Below, in pieces: positions 4,400 through 44,291 of a DNA stretch of 64,000 nucleotides. The notes under the pieces were generated by a model that saw nothing but the letters and a program-made list of their open reading frames with translations, ran no database searches and had not been told where the DNA came from. Source of the stretch: Minutocellus sp. GHC0000111 (lineage: Eukaryota); the NCBI GenBank assembly GCA_977018835.1, contig OZ361256.1, positions 5,952,001 through 6,016,000 on the forward strand, in the 5' to 3' direction. Numbering within the stretch: the stretch's first letter is position 1; every line of letters starts with the position of its first letter. Both the position numbers and the translations under genes were made by a program.

Positions 4400-7000
4400 T
4401 ACTTGTTGTAGGTTGTTTTGCCAGACAAACATGCCACTGAAGATTCCTTTTGCACTCCCAGCCTTTCAAATGATACTTCTGCTGGTCAGGCATTGCATGG
4501 CATTGTCTTTCTACTGACACGTGTACATACATGTAGATCCTCCACCCACTTGACTGACCATGAGATTGATTGATTGCTGCCCCCTCCGGATGTTGTTCAC
4601 CAGAGTGTTGCAACACCTGCTTGCTTCCCCATGACATGGACTGGCTTTTGAGTGTTGCAACACCTTCTTGCTGTCCTGTCAAACTAAAAAAAGCAAACTG
4701 CCCCGATGTTGTTCTCGTCTTGTAACTTGAGGCCTCTCAGCTGGTGCTGCCTTCTACATGCTCTTCATCGATGTCCTCTCCTTCATCACTGCTGTCCTCT
4801 CCTTCTTCTTCATTGCTTTCTGCTGCCTTGGCCCTGCGTGCTTTTTTGACAATCTCCTCCAAGGCTTTGATGAGCTGTTGTCGACACTTGGCCTTGGCTC
4901 CCTCATTGACCAAGCACATCTCGAAACGAAGCCGACGTGACTCCTTGTCATCTCGCAACGAAAAGCGGACGTGACTGGTTCCTTGTCGTCATCATTCAAC
5001 GGGAACTTGGCCACCAAGGCGGCCTTCAACTCTCCTCATCAGACCTTCGCAGCACCAATGGCTCCCATCGAGGATGCACAGTTGCCGGCACCGTCGGCCA
5101 CGGGGGCTGGAACACGACAAGAGACTTTCCATCCAGCTCAGGACTCTCATCCACTTACTGTAGAGGTAAGGGTAGACTAATGCTAAACCTGATGCTATTG
5201 TCTTTCACAAGTGCACACCCGCCGAGCCACACTTCATCCTCTTCTTCCACTTCTAGAGACAATGATAGCCTGGGAAGGATCTTCGGTCACATTCCGAAGC
5301 TCACTGGACGAGAATCGTTGTCTACGGCACTCATAAAAGTATGTGAAGTATGAGCATACCAAGATCGTTCGCATCTACACATCCCCACCTCGATTCTCAG
5401 ATGCCCAACTCAGCTCTACTTGGCCTGATGAACGTGGCACCGAGCGTTCCTTCCCATGGCATGGATAAAGCAATGGCTGCTACCAATACTTCCAGTTTGA
5501 AACATTATCGCGTACACATCATGTACAGCATCTTGCCCACTCTTCCGCTCATGACAAACGGGGAATGGCGGACAGCAACATGATAGTAACCTGTGGCTGC
5601 ACGTTCCGTGGGCGAGCGACCCGACGCGCTCAATGTTTCCGGAGCAAGAGACTGCACCACTGTCTGAGCTTTCGGTACCGGCGATCGGTTCTCTCCATAA
5701 GCCCTCAACGACCCGGATAGTAATGCTGACAAGGACCAGGACCCTAACCCTATTCATCTTTGGTAAAAACGTGCCTTGTACATAGCTGCATTCAATACAA
5801 AAGGGATGTATCATCTGCAACTCTGGTAAAATTGTAGATCCTATTGAAAAATTGAAGCTATGAACTAATATATTGTCGCAAGCAGACTGAAGTGGTTGCA
5901 CTTGAAACATCTCAGGTCGCCCATTCGGCGCCAATCTCATAAGCCAGACGGGGACGGGCGCCGCTTCAGCAAAGCTTGCTCTTTTACGAACGCCGCTGCT
6001 TCCGATCTCAAACTCTTCGAGGGTGGTCGCTGAGGCATCACTAGCCTATGAAGCAGCAATCGCGATACAGCCTGTCGAGCCATCGATCCGTCACCAATTG
6101 GCTGCTCTCCGACGACGGCCTGCCGTTGAACTACCTTTTCAAATCAATTCATCGCACAGCAACGATCGCAAGGCAAAAGTAGCAGTCCCCATGTTCAAGT
6201 AATTCGTTGTGTTATAATGGCAGCCAACGACAGCAGGGTTGATGTCGGCACGGAGATCAACCTTCCCTTGAAAGCCAACTTGCGCCGCGCACATGAAAGC
6301 AAGCTCTCGAATATTACTAAAGGCCTTGTTTGTCGTCGCAATCAAGAAGGTCTGCTTGGGTAGACTGCAACATCAACCTCACATGCATGGCGTGTCCTCT
6401 GGGGAGCCCTGGCCCAAGGCAGGGTGGAGCACTGATCCTAGCCGAATGGGTTGCGAACCTGTGGCTTCTCAGGTGATCTTGGAGGCCTTGTTTGTCATCC
6501 CAAACAAGGGCTGGCCTGGCTTGGTCAAACTGAGCAACACGTCAAGTACCCCCAACGTCAAGCATGTTGCTGCTGTGTCAATGTTGTTTCCGCCTCTTGG
6601 GTCATCCCATGCTGAATCTTGTGACCTTAGTCCTTTTGTTTGTCGTTGTCAACCAGCCTTACACTTCAACAACAGGATGGTTCCCTCCAAGGAGCAATGT
6701 CGTCTCGGCCTTTCTGCTTGACACCACCAATTGCCATGATTCCGACAGATGGGGGTGGTGGAAGGAGGACAAGGTCAGCAAGAAGAGCACGGTTGGCAGC
6801 CTTCTCGAGGGTATTATTGACCTTTTTGTTGGTGAGGGCATTTTGTTTGTGTGGGGCGCATGGTGGGGATGTTGCTGTGCTCTGCCAGGAAGCAAGCTCT
6901 TCTGAAACTTTCTTTTCTCCGGAACGCAGTGTTCTACTGCATGTGTACATGTAGTTCTAGTCTGGTTTGACACACACTGATGCATTCACTGCTCATTCTT
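4400..7000. pseudogene. Decayed, CpG-eroded repeat/pseudogene-like region of unknown origin
   Basis: No long ORF. Stretches at 4400-4950 and 6350-6950 are rich in TG/CA and poor in CG, with broken protein-like fragments on the minus strand. Adjacent to the LINE. Confidence 0.35.
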
Positions 7001-15791: not shown

Positions 15792-16699
15792 CATCTGGGG
15801 AAGCTGGCATCACCTGTAGCCGGATGATGGAAACCTGTGCCGTCTGCGTCTTGGACGGAACGAGGGCTTTCCCTCACCTTTTTTGGACCGAAGATGAAGA
15901 GAGTTTGCGAGCGCCGCACGATGAGCGATGAACGTGTTTCCGATGATACTCGCACATCAGCAGCCACCAATTGTGAACAAAATGCTGTAATAAACTTACC
16001 AGTATTTAGATAAAGATCTACATACATGCAGTCTGGCATTCTTCTCCATCGTTGTATCGTCCGTTGCTACATGTACAGTACAGGTGGATTCGTAGATTCA
16101 ATCATTCTAGCTAGGAACTGTCGCGATCGCGATCGCTTGCGCTGCAAAGAAACCCGGAAAATGAAACGACACGCATGCTCATTTTCCAACCCGAGGAACA
16201 ATGGCCGCGAGGCGACACGAGCCCAATTTCCAAGCACCCGAGGAACAATGACAAGAATCCAACCCCTCTCAATTACTTTGCTCTCCCCGCTGTTGCTAGC
16301 GGCGAGCAGTGTCCTGGCTTTTCAGCCGGCGATTAGTAAGGTGACATCTTCTTCGACTCTCATGTTGTCCAATCGACGGCGCGGCGCAACTAACTGGAGA
16401 GATGTGTCTCTGATGCTACCGTCGATGACTCATCGGCCGATGGCGATGGCTTGATCGACTTCCCACCTCCGCTCACCGGTCTTCAGCGGACGAAGCGTGC
16501 TATCGAATTCTACAAGCGTGCTCTCCCTGTGCTGGCGGCACATGCAAGGCAAAAAGGAAAAATCGAACTTAAGCTGTGAGACCGACCTGCTGCCAGTGAA
16601 GAAGAGGAGCAAAAGACATGGGCCGATTTGGACGAATGGGGCTCAACAACAATTGCGGAGACCATCGCAGACATGAAGGGGTTGGTCTACACACACAGC

Positions 16700-19600
16700 A
16701 GCAGCAGAGCGCCAGGGAAAAAATGCAGCTAACTGGCGTTTGTCTAACTAACCCTGCTACTAATTTGTGCGCTAATGAAATGACTTTTACTTCGAACAAC
16801 CGCATCAGAAAGAAACATTTCACGAAATTGTTCTGCGAACGACACCTTCACAGAAAGTCACAAATCACAACACTTGGCAGTCCGAGCTACTTTGTAGTGC
16901 TGCGCATATTCTTCACAGTCCACTCAACTTCTTGCTTTTATTCGGTGGATTTTGTTTTGACAGATTCAGTCTGGCTGTCGTCCGTCATGCTGCACCTTTT
17001 CCGCTTTCGCTGATGCACGCCGACCGTCCATCACATATCAACTCGTTGATACTGCCTTGCATCATCGCCATGATGTAGTTGCGTGGTATTGTATCTCTCG
17101 CCCTCCGCCGCCTCTGGCGGCATGGCTGGCGCCTTTTGGCGCGCGCGCGAAAGCATTTTCCCACACGTCACGCCAGAAACAATGTGACGTGGCCGATTTC
17201 GCTGTTTGATTTTTTTTGGCCGAGCCGACGCCGCTCTGCGGAGCAACGATGATCGATCATTCTCGCTACTGCCATTGATGGTATACCGCCTGCCTGGTCA
17301 CCCATCCACCCATCGGATCGCAACGCAACCCTATCGCCTTTATCGGACCATCCGTCGGCGCTGCCATCATCCCGCCCGTCCAGAAGGGCTGCTCGATATT
17401 AGCAGCAGTCGTCGGCCACCAAATCCAAATCCAATCCGGGGGATCATTTCAAAGTAGACCGTCTCCAGTCTGCTCAATCCAATCAAACTCCCAGCACCCA
17501 GTGCACTCAACAACGAGCTCGCCTTCTACTGCCACCATCACCTGTAACCCCTGTAGTGCTCACCGTCATCATGTGGTCCAGCGGCCGGTCGAAGTTGAAG
17601 AGGATCCGTCGGTCGGCCAACCGCGGTGCCGACGCATCGGCCCGCCACGCCAATACTGGCTGCCCTGGTTTCCTTTCTGCCGATCCGCCCACGGGAGCCC
17701 GGAAGAAGAGCAAATCGGTCGTCGGCCCCGATGGCATCGGTACCGACGGTGGTGTTGCCGACGGCGGCAACAAGGACCCGGCCCCGCCGGCGAAAGTGAG
17801 CGCTGACGGCACCAACGATGATGCAATGGAGGTTGATGCCATTGTTGCTGCTGTCGGCGTACGGTTCCTTGGGCAGATGGCAAGGGCAATCAAAACGATT
17901 GAGGCCGAACGCGACCCTGTGGACGTTGCTACAGAAGCAGAGCGACGAGATGCCCTCGTCCGCCAAATTGAGGTCACGACTGAACGCGTTGAACGCGACG
18001 AAATGATGACTGCCGAGGAGAAGAGGGCCACCGCGTCGGCACACTTCACGGCCCTTGTGGAGAGCAATCCCAACGTGAGGGCAATGGTGAGTTTAGCAAA
18101 ATAATAATATTATGCATTGCCTTTCATGTCCAATGTGCATTCATCTTGGTTTATCTAACTGTCCTTTCCTTTCATTCATGCTTTCATTCTATATGTTGTA
18201 CGTGCAGATGGCCACCAGCGCAGTGCCCTCCAAGGCGGCGCCCTCGAAGGCGGCTGCAGCATGGCCGCCAGTCCTCCCCCCTACGTATGCCTCCTCCACG
18301 TCGTCTGGCATGGTCCCTGCCGCGCTCCCGACCCAGCAGGTGTTCCGCCATTTTGACATCAAGATTGGCCAAGGAGGCACCCATCCCTCGGTTGTCCCGA
18401 AGATGAGCAGCTCGATGATACCAAGTTGCCCCCGACTACCTGCTAGCAGCACCACCATGATACCGAGCCTCGGCCTTCATCACCTCAATTCCGACCAGCG
18501 CCGTTGGTCTTCTACTGGCAACGTCCCTTCGTGTGTGCAGAAGAAGCTGGAGGACGAAGCAGCGATGTACGAGAAGGAGAACGAACGTGCCGCAATCGAG
18601 GAAGGCGGTCGGCATGGGACCTTGACGGCGTACAACCATCCCATGAGAGGCAGTGGCCAGGGGGTTATGAAAGCCCTACTTGCGCATCCTCAGTGTGGCC
18701 GGTCTATTGCTGGATGTCTTACTGGGATGGATGCTGTACAGATGCTTCGCGCATGCAAGTGGGATGCGCTAGGCGTCCAGGTTCTTGATAACGTCATTGA
18801 CTCCACCGCCATACGAGAGATGAAGACCAAGGCCGCCAAGGATGCGATCGCCGCGACCGACATCTTGACAGAGGTCCAGCACCAGACCAAGGAGACGGCT
18901 GCCTTTTTGGAGAATATTATGGCACAAATTCGGCCAACGGTCACTTCTTCGGACGGTGATAGCGACGACGACAGCGACGATGACGACGGGGGGTACGGGT
19001 TTGGGAATTGTGATGATGACGAGGATAGCGGAGCTGTGCCGCCATCACCGCCGTCCTCACCTCCGCCCTCTCACAGCCGTCGCGCTCTCGGAGACCTGAC
19101 GAACTCGTCGACCAAGCCTCCCAAGGCCGCTGCCCGCCGCCGCACCGCCGATTCCGAAATATCGAATCAAGATGCCATCATCAATGGTAAGAGGGAGCGT
19201 CGCACGAGATACAGCAACAGCTTTGACGATGATGTTCTCGCAGAGCACGGTTACTACGATCCATCGCAGCCTGAACTCAAGGAAAGTGCCGGCAAAGCTG
19301 TGGACGACTATGACTCCGATGACGAGGAGGATCACTACTCTGATGAGGAGGCCAATTTGAACTTCGATGATGAGGAGGAATACCACTCTGATGAGGAGTT
19401 CGACGCCAATGCCGATGCGGTGGCCAATTTCGATGCTCCCATGAGCACGCGGAAGGTCGAGTCCAGCAAGTACTACCTTACCGAGGATGGTAAAAGAGTA
19501 GACGTGCCCAGTTGCAGCCAACGCAAATCTGACAACCTCAGAACAGTCAACCTTCGTTCATTGATTCCAGACCGTGGAAATTTCGGAGATGGCACGGTAG

Positions 19601-20615
19601 TGGCTGAGACGGACATTGACACCACCCGCTTCGAGTTGCCCGTGATCCAAGCGGCGCATGACATGGCCAATCGTGGAGTTATATCGTTGCAACGAGCAAA
19701 ATCCGGCCATGACTACCTGTTTTCGGATCTGGTACTGGGAGGTCGAGTCGACCCAATCATCGAGGAAAACAAGGACGTCGCGGGTCCTCTACTCGCTTTG
19801 TCTTGCTGTCTTAGAGCCATCGGTGTTCTGAAAGCACGCCTTCAAATCTACTTTGGCGAAGGCAGGACGGACATACACCATGACCATCCATTTGCTACGG
19901 TGCGCCTCCTCATCAAATTGTCCGGCACGATCAAGTGGTACAAGTCGACGTCCAAGATCGATCCTGTTCTTCACGACTCTGTGGGCGACGACGAGGCGCG
20001 CGTTGTCAGCCTTGTTTGCGGCGGCGCAGAGTCCTTTGCGATGGGCAGGCTGTACTATGGCGCACCACCCACCAACGTCAACCCCCACTCGTCAGAGCCT
20101 CGATCTGATGGAGAGCCATCGGTGTCGATCATCTGCCAGCTTCCATCAGGAACGGACAAGGACGAGGCCACTGAGAAGGTGCTGAAGATGCTCACTACGC
20201 TTTTTGATGAAACCACCCTCACCACCCGCCCCGAATTCAAGCGGCAGAGCAGGGACGGTGGAGCTCCATCACAATATTTCCAATCCTCTAGGGGGTCACT
20301 GTGAACTATCTGGCTGTTATCTTGACTACCTCAGCAAGGAGGAGATCAAGAAGTGTAACGACGAGGGCTTCTTTGAGCTTAGCGGCGAGGAGAAAATCCA
20401 GGCGCTGAGGGATGCAGGCAATTGGAATGACAATCCCCAACAGGTTCTGACTTGTGGATGCGGTGTAGATTTTGACACTTTCAATGGCATCAGGATCCAT
20501 GTCGCTCGCTGGTGCAATGAAGAAGGAGTTAAGGGATACTGGAAGAAGTTGGGGGTCAAAGCATTCTCTGGCGAAGAGAAGTATCAGCACCTGCTCAAGT
20601 AAGCTAAAGTAATTT
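16700..20615 (+). mobile_element. Insertion within the ABC1K gene (unclassified element; ends not resolved)
   Basis: Lies between nearly contiguous ABC1K motifs (MKG... and VISTRVDLF) and carries its own spliced gene. No clear TIR/TSD recognised. Confidence 0.6.
17571..20602 (+). CDS. Insertion-borne protein: coiled-coil/acidic N-terminus, possible 2OG-Fe(II) dioxygenase-like domain, C-terminal CxC..H..C Zn-finger-like motif
   Basis: In-frame intron 18087-18207. LQIYFGEGRTDIHHD...VRLLIKLSG...FAMGR...PHSS...SVSIICQ. Frameshift at a G-run near 20290 links to CGCGVDFDTFNGIRIHVARWC. Confidence 0.55.
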
Positions 20616-23062
20616 CGTTATCTCTACGCGAGTTGACCTCTTTCCTCCCGCGTACACTGACAAATTGGCTCAGCTACAAGATGGTATCGAACCAATGCCT
20701 TTCGAACTCGTTGAAGGGGTCGTACGGCAGGAACTTCTTGATAGCGCCCCTTTGTCGGATTTGTTCCTTAATTTTGACAAAGAACCTCTTGGGGCTGCCA
20801 GTATTGCACAAGTCCACAAGGCTTCGCTACTCGACGGACGTATTGTCGCGGTGAAGCTGCAGCGTCCCAATGTCGAGCCGAAGTTACTAGGCGATGTAGC
20901 AAATCTGAAACGCATCAGCAAGGCCTTGGCGAAGTCTCTTCCCGTGGATTACTACACGGTGTTCTCAGAGCTTGGAGAGGCACTTATCAATGAACTTGAT
21001 TTCCTTTCAGAGGCAAGCGCAATGAGAAAGATTAGCTACGCGGTTAGTCATTGCAACGATGGAACGCCCGCCGACCCACCAGTAACCATTCCACGTCCCA
21101 TCGGCGAGCTTGTCTCCAAGAGGGTGCTCGTGATGGACTTTGTATCAGGAACTCATCTCAATAGGCTTCAAGAGACAATGAAAGAGCGTGGTATCGAGCC
21201 TGGTTCGCCCGAGGCAAAGCTTGCGGGGAGAAGAATTCTCAACAGCTTGTCCTCGGCTTTCGGTGAGCAGATTCTACTCAGAAGCAATACTTTTGCTTTC
21301 ATTTACTTTATGCAACTCACCCTTATGCATCTCCTACATCAAATGAATGACTTCAATCACCTACCAACTCAGGGCGCATGATATTCGGGGCAGGTTTTAT
21401 CCATGGAGTGAGTTTTTACCTGGCTTATGCTCGCTCGGTTTATCTACATCAACACATTTCACCCTCTCATTTTCTCGCCTTTCGTCTCCTCCTTCTTTCC
21501 ATCGTCTCCAATACCTCTACCTCTACCTCTTTATAGGATCCTCACCCAGTAAGTTTAAAAATATGCTTGTATGCTACAACTGCGATGTGTCCGTTACTTA
21601 TTTCCTATGCCAATATGCCGATAATTTGCTTGGTCGGTCTCACGTATCTTCTGCGTTAATTTATTTCTTCAACTCAACTCACATTCCAGGGCAACATATT
21701 CATCGGAGAAGGCGGCAAGGTTGCATTGATTGATTGCGGTCAGTTCAAGGCCCTACCACGCACTCAAAGAGTGCAGCTGGCAAAACTAATCTTGCAGGTG
21801 GACGAATACCAAAAGGCCGAGTGCGTGGATGATGCAAACGAGGCAAAGGCGAAACTTGCAGGTTTGATTAGAGATTTCGGCGTGAAACTTATGCCCGAAC
21901 ACGAGAACGACGATGATCTAGCGGCTGCCGTTGCCTATTCCTTTTGGGGATTCCGATAGACCTTTGCCAGGTGGATACAGCACATCGGAATTGGACGAGA
22001 AATCCCCAATCAACCTGATTGCCTCGTTTCCCCAAGAATTTGTTTTGCTTGGCAGGGCAACAGTTTTACTCAAGGGTATTGCCAAGCGCCTCGATGTTCC
22101 ATTCTCGCTTGCCGAACGTTGGTCCAAGGGATGCAAATTGACAGTAAGTGCGGCATCTGCGCCGCAGCTACCTCTCTGGGGGAAGGATGTGGTGGATGAT
22201 CGTGACTCCGGGGGAACATCATCAGCCTCGAGTAGATCTAGCATGAAGCAATCTCAACAAGGAGGTGGAAGAGCCGCCGACAAGGACAATAAGATCCAAT
22301 TTCGCCAAGTTGCGCGTTTCTTTAAGGCCTGGGGCAAGGGCAAGGCACGTCGCTTCATCGAACGTGTGGTGAAGAAATTGCCAGAAGGCCTGCGGGCCAA
22401 AGTCTTGGAAGCGGAGTTGCGACGGATGGAGAGGGAGGATGCTGCGAAGTAGATCTAGCTAGAGTTTAGCTAGAAGCTATTATTATTATTAATCATTATG
22501 TATGTCTATGCTACATATATATATAGCTAGAGTCAGATTCATGCTCCGGAATCCGGACGACCTACCTGCTGCATCGAGGTTGAGTCGGTGAACTTGGTGG
22601 CGCGCGCGCGCCGGCGCGCGGCGACTTACACTACCAATGACCCATAAATTGGAGAACATCCGAAGCAGCACAAGAAGACATTCGAAATCGGAAGATTTGC
22701 TGGCGTGCGCGCTTTCAGCTCCGTTGAGCCGTTGAGCGCGAGCGTTGGCCGACCTTCCCTCAAAGCAACACTAAGTACTGCAATACTACGTAGTACCTCC
22801 CTTGCGCTTGTATCGTCGATGAAGAGAAAATTACTTACGTCGATTCGGCCGAACCGCTTGAATTTCATCGGTCGGCTCATCTTCTCTTCAATCTGCTTGC
22901 TTCCAAGCGAACACCTGAATCGAATCGGCCGGATCGAATCGAATCATCGGATCGAAGCAGTGAAAAGAAATTCTCTCCTGATTTTAGGATTGCTTCTTTG
23001 GTTTTGACTCTGCTCTTCATCAGTCACTACTCAATAATCACTCATCGCGAACACTCAACATT

Positions 23063-40352: not shown

Positions 40353-40610
40353 ATCTATCAAGTGTGATCAATTGCGTCGTTAGCAATTGTAGCAAATTGT
40401 CCTTGAATGCCGTGCAATCGATCGATGCACGTCCGGGGATGGGAGATACGAGATGAGAGGTCGGTCGGGAGATGTTGACGAGTTGCGACGCTACGTACGT
40501 ACACTTTACGTACATACGCACGATACGTAGAGTCTACGTATCTGATGACCCCGCGCGCGGAGGCCAGGCATCGACGAGGGGCCTAAATAACAAATCAGGG
40601 ATCAGCCGTA

Positions 40611-43600
40611 CCTTTCGGTTTCAGAGGATTTGTAGAGGGTATACCAATAACCCCTAAAAAAGGTCATTCTTGCACCCATTTCTCATTTCCCACCACACGT
40701 GTTTTGTTAGTCGATGTTCTCTTCGGGAGGAACGCAAATGCTCCTCAACTCGTGGACATCTCTACTGGACCTGCTCATTCAGTAGGTTGCCACCGACCAG
40801 TAGTATCCACTGAATTCGCAGGTCCAGTAGATTCTGGCAGGAACACATGTATTTTTTGGTCCCCCGCACACCCTCGCCGACCGACCGCACAACCAACCCG
40901 CAAATTTTGTGACGATGACGACGACCAACCAGACCACGCCCAAAAAATACAAACGCAGCAGAACTTCGTTCTCAGGGAGCAAGAGAGGCAACACCAAGGC
41001 ATCCAGGAAGGCGGCAAAGGCGGCAGCTGAGCCGAAAACACCATCGCCGAGCGCAAACACGTCGAAGAAGCGGCCACGGTCAAATTCGCCCCCGCCAAAC
41101 CGTCACCGTCGTCGGCGAAGAAGAAGAGGACGGCCCCTCCTCCTATCCCCATGGCCTTTCTCCTTGCAGCAGATGTCATTCGAAGGGCTGGTAAGGATCT
41201 GTGGTGGAGAGTAACCCCCGATTCCTGCGCGGCAAAGACGACATTTGTGTTGGTTCTCGCGGCAGAAATGGGAAGACGTCCTCCCCCCCTGCTTTCATCG
41301 AGGCCGACTTGTTGCGTTCCAAGTCCGTCGGTGGAGGAAAGTATGAGCTACAGTACAACGAGGAAAAATGGAAGGATATGCAGCAACATCTCAAGGAGCA
41401 TTGTAGTTTGAAGTTGCACTTGTCGACGTGTCGGCCGAGAGGGAAGACAAGACGCAGGGCGCTTTGTGTTTGTGCTCACAGGTTGCGTAAAAAGAAGGAG
41501 GACAACCACCACCCGAAATTCTCTGGACCGGAGGGACAGAAGGTGCACGAGAAAAGAAATCCCGATGAAGTTCTGTTCTCTGGGCGCTCCTCGACTGTCT
41601 TAGCTACTAAGCTAGGTGAGAGGTTGTCAGCTCACAGAAAGGAGGTGCAGTCAGCGCATTGCGAAGCAAGAGCAAAATCACTAGTCGACGAGGCCAAGAA
41701 ACTGGGTTGGATGCCAGCAAGTCTCCTCAGCATGCTGAAGGGAACTGGTGATGCTTCCGCCACTGAAGCAGCTGCAGCCTCCCCCAATGATGAAGGTTTA
41801 GGAGGAGCCGATACTTCCGTTGTCTGTGCCACCTCCAGTGACATTGATGAACAGGTAAAGGTCGCTCTCGGCCTCGACTTTGTTGTTCGGATGGCCAACG
41901 ACGATGACATGCTCCGTCCTCCTCGTCCCAATGCAACCGTCACCGAACCAACACCAATCAGAAAAGAAAAGCAGGCGAATGAAAGAATGCGGTTCAGCGC
42001 CGTGGCTCTCGCGGATTGGTGGGGATGCGGCGACCCAACAACTCGCACGCATGAAGACCGGCAACAAATTGCAACTGCCGCGTGTCGGCAAGTTGCGTGC
42101 GATCACGGTTATGCCAAGTCAACCGGTGGTTCTCAGCTTTACAAGTGGAGAGACCAGCTCTACAAAAGCCTTACTGATGGCATCAGCAATCCCATCGGCA
42201 GAAAGGAGGTTCGTGGAAGGAAGGCATGCACGGACATGATCGAGGAGAAGGAGCCAGGATGTCTCCGCGAGCTGTGTCGGCATGCTGCTCGGATGAAGGG
42301 TGCGATGGCAACCTTTAAGGAGCTAGCTGACTGTGTGAGCGCAAAATCAGCTACTCCAGATGAAGATAGGCTGACAATTTGTCTCCATCGTCTTCAGCTT
42401 TTTCGCTGGTGGAAAAAGCAAGGCGGTAAGGAGAAGTCGTCGATCGAGAAGCCGAGGCTCACCCCCGAACATTGCAGGAAGCGACTTGATTGGATCGAAA
42501 AGTGGGAGGACATTACGACCGATCCCAACATTCCTGTAGCGTGTCTTGATGAAAAGTGATTTTACACTACTACTCGGCGACGAAAGATCAAGATGTTGCC
42601 ACTTTCTGACGAAGAACTAAGTAGTCCGAACCTCGCGTCTATCCATGCTTCCGAGGCAAGCCCGAAAATTCGATCCAGAAGACACCCTGTCAAAGTTATG
42701 CATCTTGGAGTTGTTGGCCGACCAATGAAGGATGAAACCAAAGACGTTGATTTCAATGGGCGCATCATGATCAAGAGAGTCGCCAGGGAGCAGAAGGTGG
42801 AAAAGCTTACGCGTAATCAGAATTTCTCTCCAGATGCTAAGGTCAACGATGCGCTAAAAAATGACAAAGATTGGCGATTGGCGCGAAATTTACGACGAGA
42901 ATGCTGACATGACCGCCGGCCATCTTTGCGACCACATTGCCGAAATCTACGGCCTTTCTGAGTTTGTTACAGAGCGATTGGAACTTCAATACGAGGACTA
43001 TAAATCCGACGGTCAGGCAAAAAGTCGCAAGCATGCCGCTGTTGGCTACAATCAAAAGATCTCGAGTCTCAAGCGACACACTCCTGATAGCAATGGAGAG
43101 AAGGTGAAGGTTGAGATCGACGACCTTGAGCTCGGGGTGCGGTATCAACGGGGCGATAAGGTTACCAAGGACTGTAGCTGCGACTCCAAATGGATGTTGG
43201 AGACTATGAATGAGGTCGGGAAGGCGATTCGAGACGCACATCATTGGGTGAAGTGGGATCCACAAAATATTCAGGAGTCTGATGTTACATGTCTTATGAT
43301 GGACAATGCCGGTGGTCATGGGTCCAATGAAGCAGTTGAGAAGTACACCGAGGACCTCAAAAACAAATATAAGATTGAGATAATCCAGCAGGTTCCTCGG
43401 TCGCCCGAGACAAATGTTCTTGATCTCGGCATCTGGATGTCTTTGCAGTCGGCCGTCGAAAAGGAGCATCGCGGTCAGAAGAATGATGCGAATGCTCTTG
43501 ACAAGACTGTGATGAAAGTATGGGCCAATGTCGCATCAAAAGAGGCCTTTCTCAATGTATTTGGAAAACTTCCAGTGATATATAACAACATCAAGAGAAG

Positions 43601-44104
43601 TCGTGGCGGTAACAATCTTGTGGAGACCAGACGGGGAAAGGCTGTTCTCTCGCAAAAATTGCCGAGGAAGAAGCTGAAGAGGATGGTGAACCACTCTGGC
43701 CAATTGATGCTCCCGGCGAAGATGATGACATTGAGGACGACATAGATGAAAATGATGAAGACTATGGAGTCATTGATTTGCTATAACTTATCATAGCATG
43801 TCCATTTCTATTCATTACATTTTGATTTGGTGCTTCCAAAAATGTGTATTTTTTCCCGGGGTGAGGAATGCAAATGTCGAAAAAAATCATCACATAATGT
43901 ACATTTATTGGTTCTGGTGCACAATATCTCTCGACTATATGTAGAAGTTGGTGACCATAACTTGGTTCTTGCCCCGACTTCCATCTTGGCCGTCATTTAT
44001 TCCTCGGAGTTAGAAAAAGTGAGAGCTTGGATTTTTGGTCTGGTGTGGTCGTGTTTCTAATACGTCATCATCACGTCACTTTCAAATCCTCTGAACTCGA
44101 AAGG
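40611..44104 (+). mobile_element. Full-length Tc1/mariner-superfamily DD39D DNA transposon (3494 bp) with an inactivated transposase
   Basis: 22-bp TIRs CCTTTCGGTTTCAGAGGATTTG (40611-40632) and CAAATCCTCTGAACTCGAAAGG (44083-44104), 2 mismatches. TA on both sides (40609-40610, 44105-44106). Confidence 0.95.
40915..43790 (+). pseudogene. DD39D transposase pseudogene
   Basis: LDEK*F (W codon read as TGA at 42557-42559), KVMHLGVVGRP, MMDNAGGH...QVPRSPETNVLDLGIW with exactly 39 residues between the 2nd and 3rd Asp, GGNN. Frameshifts near 41100-41200, 42860 and 43710. Confidence 0.9.
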
Positions 44105-44291
44105 TACTTCTAGGTCCTACGTAGTAGGCAAGGAGAAAGTCATCACCACAACATCCTCAAGAGAACTAGCCAGGAGTAGCCCACTAGCCTAGCTAGACTA
44201 GTACGTGAAGTAGTCGGACGAGGATCAAAGGTACCGCTTGGCCATTTGACGTGGCCATTTGACTTACGATCGTAGTCTCCCCCGAGCAAAC

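What the first reader, a model, noticed from the sequence alone, without database searches (positions are those of the whole stretch)
17571..20602. Insertion-borne gene with a possible AlkB/TET-like 2OG-Fe(II) dioxygenase fold and Zn finger
Seen: an HxD (HHD from 19876) preceded by a beta-strand plus Y, a distal His (20086) about 70 residues later, a terminal strand SVSIICQ, then a CxC-x12-H-x4-C motif. The gene sits inside an element that split ABC1K. Established: TET/JBP dioxygenases travel on KDZ-type transposons in fungi and algae. Inference: cargo that modifies or demethylates DNA (anti-silencing), notable next to an RTAY-mutated patch. Caveat: the usual 2OG-binding Arg is not evident.
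Basis: inference. Interest (0 to 1): 0.7.

Follow-up and report, generated by a model that had tools for sequence, protein, structure and literature searches.

The report
Inserted iron-oxygenase gene, rewired cofactor site
A 3.9-kb insertion that breaks one copy of a kinase gene in a probable diatom carries a spliced, transcribed but shortened gene predicted to fold as an iron-dependent oxygenase of a small unnamed family lacking the usual cofactor-binding arginine, and it is likely cargo of mobile DNA whose intact relatives may modify DNA bases.

Summary
The core observation holds. A two-exon gene (17571-18086, 18208-20304; 870 aa) is spliced in 4 of 4 RNA runs. It lies in an insertion that a second, transcribed ABC1K version lacks (joint 16680>20626); contig depths fit one insertion-bearing and one empty haplotype. 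AlphaFold2 (pLDDT 77.5) with Foldseek and VIA gives a double-stranded beta-helix of the 2OG/Fe(II)-oxygenase class. H729-x-D731 and H799 are invariant in four relatives. No subfamily wins: AlkB, TET, prolyl hydroxylases and PolD score alike. The strand-VIII arginine is replaced by an invariant serine (RxS to SxS), and invariant Arg738/Lys742 on strand III likely take over. Two corrections follow. The Zn finger is not part of this protein: about 185 codons present in two full-length relatives are deleted and the finger is out of frame. No second copy, transposase, TIR or TSD was found; only about 70 bp near the left end recur elsewhere. The TpA-mutated patch is real but stops just inside the left end. 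DNA as substrate and anti-silencing remain untested. Verdict: a truncated member of a new family of probably mobile oxygenases.

The parts
16250..16680 (+). 5' part of a dead ABC1K (ABC1 atypical kinase) copy; in-frame stop near 16577 and small insertions relative to the other version
   Evidence: loose end of the other version at 16583, spliced RNA joint 16680>20626 in X9
16078..16906 (.). RTAY-free, YTAR-enriched patch (TpA hypermutation signature), reaching about 115 bp past the likely left end of the insert
   Evidence: TGC at 16543-16545 where the other version reads TAC
16681..20625 (.). Outer limits of the stretch absent from the second ABC1K version (3945 bp; that version has about 281 other letters there, my arithmetic from a 501-nt contig)
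16792..16863 (.). About 70-bp segment shared (90-95% alike) with 4 other contigs that have different upstream flanks; likely left terminus of an element family (inferred)
   Evidence: tables 7 and 8; single in the window
17052..17570 (+). Stretch covered by RNA contigs upstream of the ATG (cover begins 17052-17111 in 4 runs); likely 5' UTR
   Evidence: contigs give no strand or exact start
17571..18086 (+). Exon 1, 172 codons, no known family
18087..18207 (+). GT-AG intron, 121 nt
   Evidence: spliced in RNA runs X6, X7, X8, X9
18208..20304 (+). Exon 2 to stop codon; 870-aa product with acidic low-complexity middle and C-terminal oxygenase domain
19576..20241 (+). Predicted 2OG/Fe(II)-oxygenase DSBH domain: R716-x-Q718-x-Y720, H729-x-D731, R738-x-L-x-K742, H799, S810-x-S812
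20242..20255 (+). Deletion junction: about 185 codons of the relatives are missing and the frame shifts
   Evidence: P0001 625>810, P0003 293>484
20256..20602 (+). Out-of-frame, stop-free remnant of the family's C-terminus with the CxC-x12-H-x4-C finger (from 20453); 53% identical to P0001
20626..22452 (+). 3' part of the dead ABC1K copy (Pfam ABC1, E 1e-39); about 7% different from the transcribed version over 20626-21261; frame break near 21940

Best explanation
A stretch of about 3.9 kb that sits in only one version of an ABC1K gene, likely a non-autonomous mobile segment, carries a spliced, transcribed gene whose last domain is predicted to be an Fe(II)/2-oxoglutarate oxygenase that likely oxidises or demethylates nucleic-acid bases. 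Shown: the insertion, splicing, the invariant H729/D731/H799 triad, and the loss of about 185 codons that puts the Zn finger out of frame. Predicted: the DSBH fold. Inferred: Fe binds the triad; 2OG is held by Tyr720, Ser812 and the strand-III pair Lys742/Arg738 instead of the strand-VIII arginines; in full-length relatives two helix-turn-helix-like repeats and the CCHC finger steer the enzyme to DNA; this copy keeps the catalytic domain but has lost that targeting tail. Step odds: DSBH with Fe triad 0.95; active oxygenase family 0.75; mobile cargo 0.65; nucleic-acid substrate 0.5; this copy still useful 0.35; anti-silencing role 0.2.
For: Fold: pLDDT 77.5, pTM 0.80; Foldseek 497 of 500 counted matches at E<=0.001, top PHD2 1.4e-7, ALKBH5 1.6e-6; VIA Z 9.3 PolD, 8.5 ALKBH3, 8.1 OsALKBH1, 7.8 NgTET1 (rmsd 3.6-4.3, 146-160 aligned). 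Active-site residues invariant in 6 of 6 rows at 37-61% identity. Counting back from the aligned ends, Ser810 falls on ALKBH5 Arg277, OGFOD1 Arg230, NgTET1 Arg289 and TET2 Arg1896 (4 of 4; roles from passages). Lys742 is 13 residues after the first His, where OGFOD1 has its C5-carboxylate-binding Tyr169 (+14). Insertion: empty version in X1, X2, X9; depths 78.6 (insert) against 81.7 (empty) in X2, and 104 plus 74 against flanks of 156-168 in X1. No named protein among the relatives and only 4 non-self relatives among 1.84 billion representatives, as expected for patchy mobile cargo. About 70 bp at the left end recur with different flanks. Full-length relatives end in a repeat region and a CCHC finger. 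Transposon-borne 2OG oxygenases are known in fungi, red algae and orchids.
Against: No transposase-sized second ORF in the insert, no TIR or TSD (only an 8-bp inverted match, chance level), no second copy of the gene at 80% identity or more in X1 and X2. The genomic context of the relatives could not be seen (contigs 1.8-6.9 kb; no loci). The best structural match (PolD, a small-molecule enzyme) and the best Foldseek match (PHD2, a protein hydroxylase) are not nucleic-acid enzymes; identities are 7-17% and TM about 0.4. TET base-recognition residues are absent. The DNA-binding reading of the tail has no Pfam support. The model rests on 6 rows, only 3 of 5 models exceed pLDDT 70, and side-chain geometry could not be measured. 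Contig depth is not a copy number by the tool's own note, and X1/X2 may be the window's source.
Confidence: 0.42

Rival explanations
1. Same insertion and fold, but the family hydroxylates a protein (prolyl/lysyl-type) or a small molecule rather than nucleic acid; the tail binds protein or only anchors it on chromatin.
For: Top Foldseek rows are PHD2, top VIA rows PolD and PasI; S810-x-S812 matches the RxS class that includes OGFOD1; P0001 has a weak PDZ-like N-terminus (E 0.035).
Against: ALKBH2/3/5, FTO and NgTET1 lie within about 1-1.5 Z of the top; Q-x-Y-x8-HxD spacing equals ALKBH5 Asn193/Tyr195/His204; CCHC finger and mobile context favour nucleic acid.
Confidence: 0.25
2. This copy is a young pseudogene or passenger: the family may be real enzymes, but the deletion and frameshift removed the targeting half and the transcript has no role.
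For: About 185 codons deleted and finger out of frame; the remnant is still stop-free, so the lesion looks recent; N-terminus unrelated to P0001's. This can hold together with the best explanation.
Against: 870 codons open with an intact triad while the host ABC1K copy around it gathered a stop, insertions and a frame break; spliced RNA in two studies; same form in at least 3 studies.
Confidence: 0.4
3. Not a transposable element: a one-off capture or rearrangement (double-strand-break repair, horizontal transfer, or introgressed haplotype) placed a rare gene in the ABC1K intron.
For: Single copy, no transposase, TIR or TSD; part of the ABC1K intron and exon start is missing; the two ABC1K versions differ by about 7%, 26 of 38 listed differences synonymous, so the haplotypes are old.
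Against: The 70-bp left segment joins to different flanks in 4 other contigs; no donor copy is seen elsewhere in the genome.
Confidence: 0.3
4. The family binds iron but uses another co-substrate than 2OG (as algal CMD1 uses vitamin C) or is non-catalytic.
For: Both strand-VIII arginines are missing in 6 of 6 rows; CMD1 shows that loss of the C5-carboxylate anchor can mean a co-substrate switch (passages).
Against: Invariant Lys742, Arg738, Tyr720 and Ser812 offer a full substitute anchor; co-substrate residues are subfamily-specific.
Confidence: 0.15

Closest known systems
AlkB-family nucleic-acid oxygenases (ALKBH2, ALKBH3, ALKBH5, FTO, OsALKBH1)
   Same: DSBH fold (VIA Z 7.4-8.7, rmsd 3.6-4.5, about 155-165 aligned); HxD..H; amide-x-Tyr on strand I nine residues before the first His; distal His to strand-VIII start spaced 11 as in ALKBH5.
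   Different: Arg277 and Arg283 equivalents are Ser and Gln; 7-17% identity; no Pfam match; invariant Arg/Lys on strand III; C-terminal repeat and CCHC finger in full-length members.
TET/JBP dioxygenases on fungal DNA transposons (Kojima 2025, PMC12730594) and algal CMD1 (PMC7854593)
   Same: DSBH with His-Asp-His triad (NgTET1 Z 7.8, TET2 Z 6.7); inserted, probably mobile setting; CMD1 also departs from the usual 2OG anchor.
   Different: No Tet_JBP profile match; Arg1896/Arg289 equivalent is Ser; residues that hold 5mC in CMD1 (Asp350, Phe416, Arg418) map to Phe, Gln, Pro; no transposase, TIR or TSD here.
RxS-class hydroxylases (PHD2, OGFOD1) and nucleoside-antibiotic enzymes PolD/PasI
   Same: Best Foldseek (PHD2 E 1.4e-7) and VIA (PolD Z 9.3-9.6) scores; Ser of RxS kept; a strand-III residue placed to bind the 2OG C5 carboxylate.
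   Different: Arg of RxS is Ser; the strand-III residue is Lys rather than Tyr; different domain context.
PAG3 accessory gene of red-algal Plavaka transposons (bioRxiv 10.1101/2025.02.11.637652) and orchid Gypsy AlkB (PMC9289625)
   Same: 2OG oxygenase domain carried by mobile DNA in algae or plants; PAG3 is also invisible to InterPro and fused to a DNA-binding domain.
   Different: PAG3 has an N-terminal ParB-like domain inside autonomous elements; the orchid enzyme is a close AlkB relative. Sequences were not compared here.

Membership tests
2OG/Fe(II) oxygenases (DSBH class) | Double-stranded beta-helix core with N-terminal strands and helices | tested here: met
   (predicted model)
2OG/Fe(II) oxygenases (DSBH class) | HxD/E..H facial triad on strands II and VII | tested here: met
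   H729, D731, H799 invariant in 6 of 6 rows, at the strand positions
Classical 2OGFeDO superfamily (PMC2938197) | Conserved arginine on strand 8 binding 2OG | tested here: not met
   Ser810 in 6 of 6 rows; register from aligned ends, assuming no gap in the last 10-11 residues
JOR/JmjC superfamily (PMC2938197) | Basic residue on strand 4 binding 2OG | tested here: not met
   No conserved basic residue at model positions 119-123
2OG/Fe(II) oxygenases (DSBH class) | Fe(II)- and 2OG-dependent turnover | not testable with these tools
   needs an assay
AlkB family | Asn-x-Tyr on strand I | tested here: met
   Gln718-x-Tyr720 (Gln for Asn), same spacing to HxD as ALKBH5
AlkB family | Two arginines on strand VIII | tested here: not met
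   Ser810 (6 of 6) and Gln/Lys/Asn816
AlkB family | Nucleotide recognition lid | tested here: inconclusive
   N-terminal hairpin aligns within the range of ALKBH3/5, but no residue-level alignment was available
AlkB family | Profile match (Pfam, NCBIfam) | tested here: not met
   no oxygenase family at E<=5-10
TET/JBP family | Fold closer to TET than to other oxygenases | tested here: inconclusive
   NgTET1 Z 7.8 is tied with ALKBH3 8.5 and a proline hydroxylase 7.7
TET/JBP family | 5mC-recognising residues (polar at HxD+3; aromatic and His/Arg at strand-VIII Arg+6, +8) | tested here: not met
   Phe734, Gln816, Pro818 against CMD1 Asp350, Phe416, Arg418; by register only
TET-bearing DNA transposons (KDZ, Plavaka, Harbinger, Helitron) | Linked transposase | tested here: not met
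   no other long ORF in 16681-20625; no Pfam match; relatives' context not seen
TET-bearing DNA transposons (KDZ, Plavaka, Harbinger, Helitron) | TIRs and target-site duplication | tested here: inconclusive
   none found, but target DNA and probably the right end are deleted
TET-bearing DNA transposons (KDZ, Plavaka, Harbinger, Helitron) | Multiple copies and empty site | tested here: inconclusive
   empty site met; only 70 bp recur, the gene is single at 80% or more
NUMOD1-type DNA-binding repeats (label recalled, from no call) | Profile match of the deleted middle region of relatives | tested here: not met
   no Pfam match; an internal repeat is seen (E 0.006)

The most novel reading that the evidence does not exclude
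A diatom mobile-element family encodes a DNA-base oxygenase with a rewired co-substrate site (strand-III Lys/Arg instead of strand-VIII Arg) plus its own DNA-binding tail, and uses it to erase the mark that draws silencing or TpA hypermutation, which would explain why the mutated patch stops just inside the element.
Probability: 0.1. Interest if true: 0.85.

Novelty: new variant of a known kind. Interest (0 to 1): 0.5.

Why it matters
Known 2OG oxygenases anchor the co-substrate with an arginine on strand 8 (classical) or a basic residue on strand 4 (JmjC); this family has neither and likely uses strand III, a third solution that is simple to test. If it acts on DNA, it adds an unnamed base-modifying enzyme family on algal mobile DNA and a handle on how such DNA evades methylation or the unexplained TpA hypermutation. 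If it acts on protein or is dead here, it is still a new oxygenase family, but of modest interest.

Tried and rejected
Fused Zn finger by splicing: rejected; RNA contigs X7 20225-20401, X8 20167-20409, X9 19952-20438 are unspliced, and frame-restoring GT-AG pairs downstream of the domain have weak donors. A one-base slip in the G run near 20292 or an assembly error: rejected; DNA contigs agree with the window and relatives show a large deletion upstream. Profiles: no oxygenase match in Pfam, NCBIfam, PHROGs or PDB sequences. ESM Atlas: best 0.89, third hit with DUF1826 in 26% of members, below the lead threshold; second search uninformative. First model from 2 rows was poor (pLDDT 43) and was not searched. 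No TET/JBP among the 50 rows, but NgTET1 and TET2 appear. P0006 dropped as a proline-rich false hit. No related loci in metagenome, genome, viral or phage collections; one search counted 1 matching viral stretch for the C-terminal remnant but gave no locus, so a viral link is open. No Rfam family. No whole genome was held, so copy number rests on contig laying. Link to the RTAY patch: gene body normal (34 RTAY of 96 TA in 16907-20625), and 0 of 38 listed ABC1K differences on the right flank remove an RTAY core; the gap was chosen after the fact (about 0.13 such gaps expected by chance). Literature searches showed no description of this family; they are word searches and supplements (fungal TET tables, red-algal PAG3 sequences) were not seen.
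Full report
Setting. The window looks like a diatom chromosome (intron style and gene content; my inference, from no call). No whole genome was held, so copy number and alleles were read from public contigs.

Gene model. Exon 1 runs 17571-18086, a 121-nt GT-AG intron 18087-18207, exon 2 18208-20304, giving 870 aa. The intron is spliced in 4 of 4 RNA runs laid, from two studies (X6, X7; X8, X9), so the gene is transcribed. HHD (19876), the distal His (20086) and SVSIICQ (20119) are in this frame. The CxC-x12-H-x4-C motif (20453) is in the +1 frame, past the stop. RNA contigs of three runs cross this place unspliced and without gaps, and DNA contigs agree with the window.

Relatives. phmmer against 1.84 billion representatives gave 6 proteins at E<=0.001: the gene itself (P0002), four true relatives (P0001, P0003, P0004, P0005) and one proline-rich false hit that I dropped. 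Word-seeded searches added none. None of the relatives carries a name; sources are Logan and ENA only. P0001 (923 aa) and P0003 (603 aa) align over their whole shared length (E 3e-172). Against the window they match up to 20238-20241 and resume at 20246-20255 in the next frame, skipping about 185 residues. So the finger belongs to the family, but this copy has an internal deletion that leaves it out of frame. The remnant is stop-free and 53% identical to P0001, which suggests a recent lesion. The deleted region holds an internal repeat (E 0.006) that resembles NUMOD1-type helix-turn-helix units from memory; Pfam did not confirm this.

Fold. No profile library recognises the domain. The HxD..H pattern alone is chance level (45% of shuffles). 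With 6 rows AlphaFold2 gave pLDDT 77.5 and pTM 0.80 (3 of 5 models above 70; a 2-row model reached only 43). Foldseek returned 2OG oxygenases throughout: PHD2 E 1.4e-7, ALKBH5 1.6e-6, TM about 0.4, and viral 2OG oxygenases. VIA against 48,161 representatives gave PolD Z 9.3 (rmsd 3.7, 160 aligned), PasI 8.7, ALKBH3 8.5, OsALKBH1 8.1, NgTET1 7.8, proline hydroxylase 7.7, YcfD 7.5, TET2 6.7 (similar). The class is clear; the subfamily is not.

Active site. Invariant in 6 of 6 rows (5 independent; P0008 is a near copy of P0003): Q718, Y720, T726, H729, D731, F734, R738, K742, H799, S801, S810, S812. Counting back from the aligned ends without gaps, S810 lands on ALKBH5 Arg277, OGFOD1 Arg230, NgTET1 Arg289 and TET2 Arg1896, each named as the 2OG C5-carboxylate arginine in passages I read (PMC3985658, PMC4224472, PMC4396695, PMC7854593). 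S812 lands on OGFOD1 Ser232, so RxS has become SxS; Q816 lands on ALKBH5 Arg283. PMC2938197 (passages) defines the classical superfamily by the strand-8 arginine and JmjC by a strand-4 basic residue; this family has neither. K742 lies 13 residues after the first His, about where OGFOD1 has Tyr169 (+14), which binds the same carboxylate. The spacing Q-x-Y-x8-HxD equals ALKBH5. The CMD1 residues that hold 5mC map to Phe, Gln and Pro, against TET membership.

Insertion. ABC1K pieces flank the gene (Pfam E 1e-39). Contigs of X1 and X2 and a spliced RNA contig of X9 join 16680 to 20626. Depths are 78.6 for the insert and 81.7 for the empty form in X2; 104 and 74 in X1, with flanks of 156-168. This fits one haplotype each, with the tool's caveat that depth is no copy number and that X1/X2 may be the window's source; X5 and the RNA runs of other studies also hold both forms. 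The two ABC1K versions differ by about 7%, 26 of 38 listed differences synonymous (27 more rows were not shown). The window's version has a stop near 16577 and a frame break near 21940. About 70 bp at 16792-16863 recur in 4 other contigs with different upstream flanks, as at an element end. The rest is single at 80% identity or more. There is no transposase, TIR or TSD, and part of the ABC1K intron and exon start is missing, so the right end may be lost. The flanks of the relatives could not be read.

RTAY patch. 16078-16906 has no RTAY and 11 of 23 TA in YTAR, against 330 of 2166 in the window. This fits the TpA hypermutation described in Bigelowiella natans (bioRxiv 10.64898/2026.01.13.699255, passages, which proposes an adenosine deaminase and does not mention 6mA, AlkB or TET). 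The gene body and the right flank are not mutated. Transcribed DNA being spared explains this as well as protection by the enzyme; no link is shown.

Comparison. Mobile 2OG oxygenases are known: TET/JBP on 11 lineages of fungal DNA transposons (PMC12730594; abstract, passages, sections 3.2.3 and 3.4), PAG3 on red-algal Plavaka elements (bioRxiv 10.1101/2025.02.11.637652, passages) and an active AlkB in orchid Gypsy elements (PMC9289625, abstract only). This gene likely works like them but is not a member of AlkB or TET by the tested residues. Earlier scan notes list other diatom element-borne oxygenases, unchecked; look-ups by sequence found no look-alike. Word searches showed no description of this family; supplements were not seen.

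Verdict. Real, transcribed, insertion-borne, truncated member of a small unnamed 2OG/Fe(II)-oxygenase-fold family with an unusual co-substrate site. Mobile cargo acting on nucleic acid is the best reading (0.42); substrate and anti-silencing are untested. New variant of a known kind; interest 0.5.

Noticed in passing
window 40608-44107: Separate decayed cut-and-paste transposon: 25-nt inverted ends (92% complementary), DDE-like ORF with a stop and a frame break; 41811-42989 is the longest RTAY-free gap in the window (1 RTAY in 1401 nt, P about 9e-6), while its 3' third is not depleted.
   Followed up: partly
window 4527-5339: Third RTAY-free gap with low CpG and stops in all frames; likely a mutated relic.
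   Followed up: partly
window 16055-21260: An island of about 7% divergence between two haplotypes inside flanks that assemble as single contigs; both forms occur in samples of several studies, suggesting long-kept heterozygosity around the insertion.
   Followed up: partly
window 20617-20625: The nine bases before the ABC1K match resumes read V-I-S in frame, where the other version reads I-I-S with other codons; the right junction may be 20617 rather than 20626.
   Followed up: partly
window 19999 and 17161: X1 and X2 carry other letters here than the window (19999 also X5, X9 and proteins P0002/P0007: Gly for Arg); variant or window error.
   Followed up: no
window 19289-19422: Five 24-nt tandem units coding an acidic stretch just before the oxygenase domain; shorter in relatives.
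   Followed up: no
protein P0001 residues 165-215: Weak PDZ-like segment (Pfam E 0.035; DegP hits E about 1) in an N-terminus unrelated to the window's, showing that family N-termini are exchanged.
   Followed up: partly
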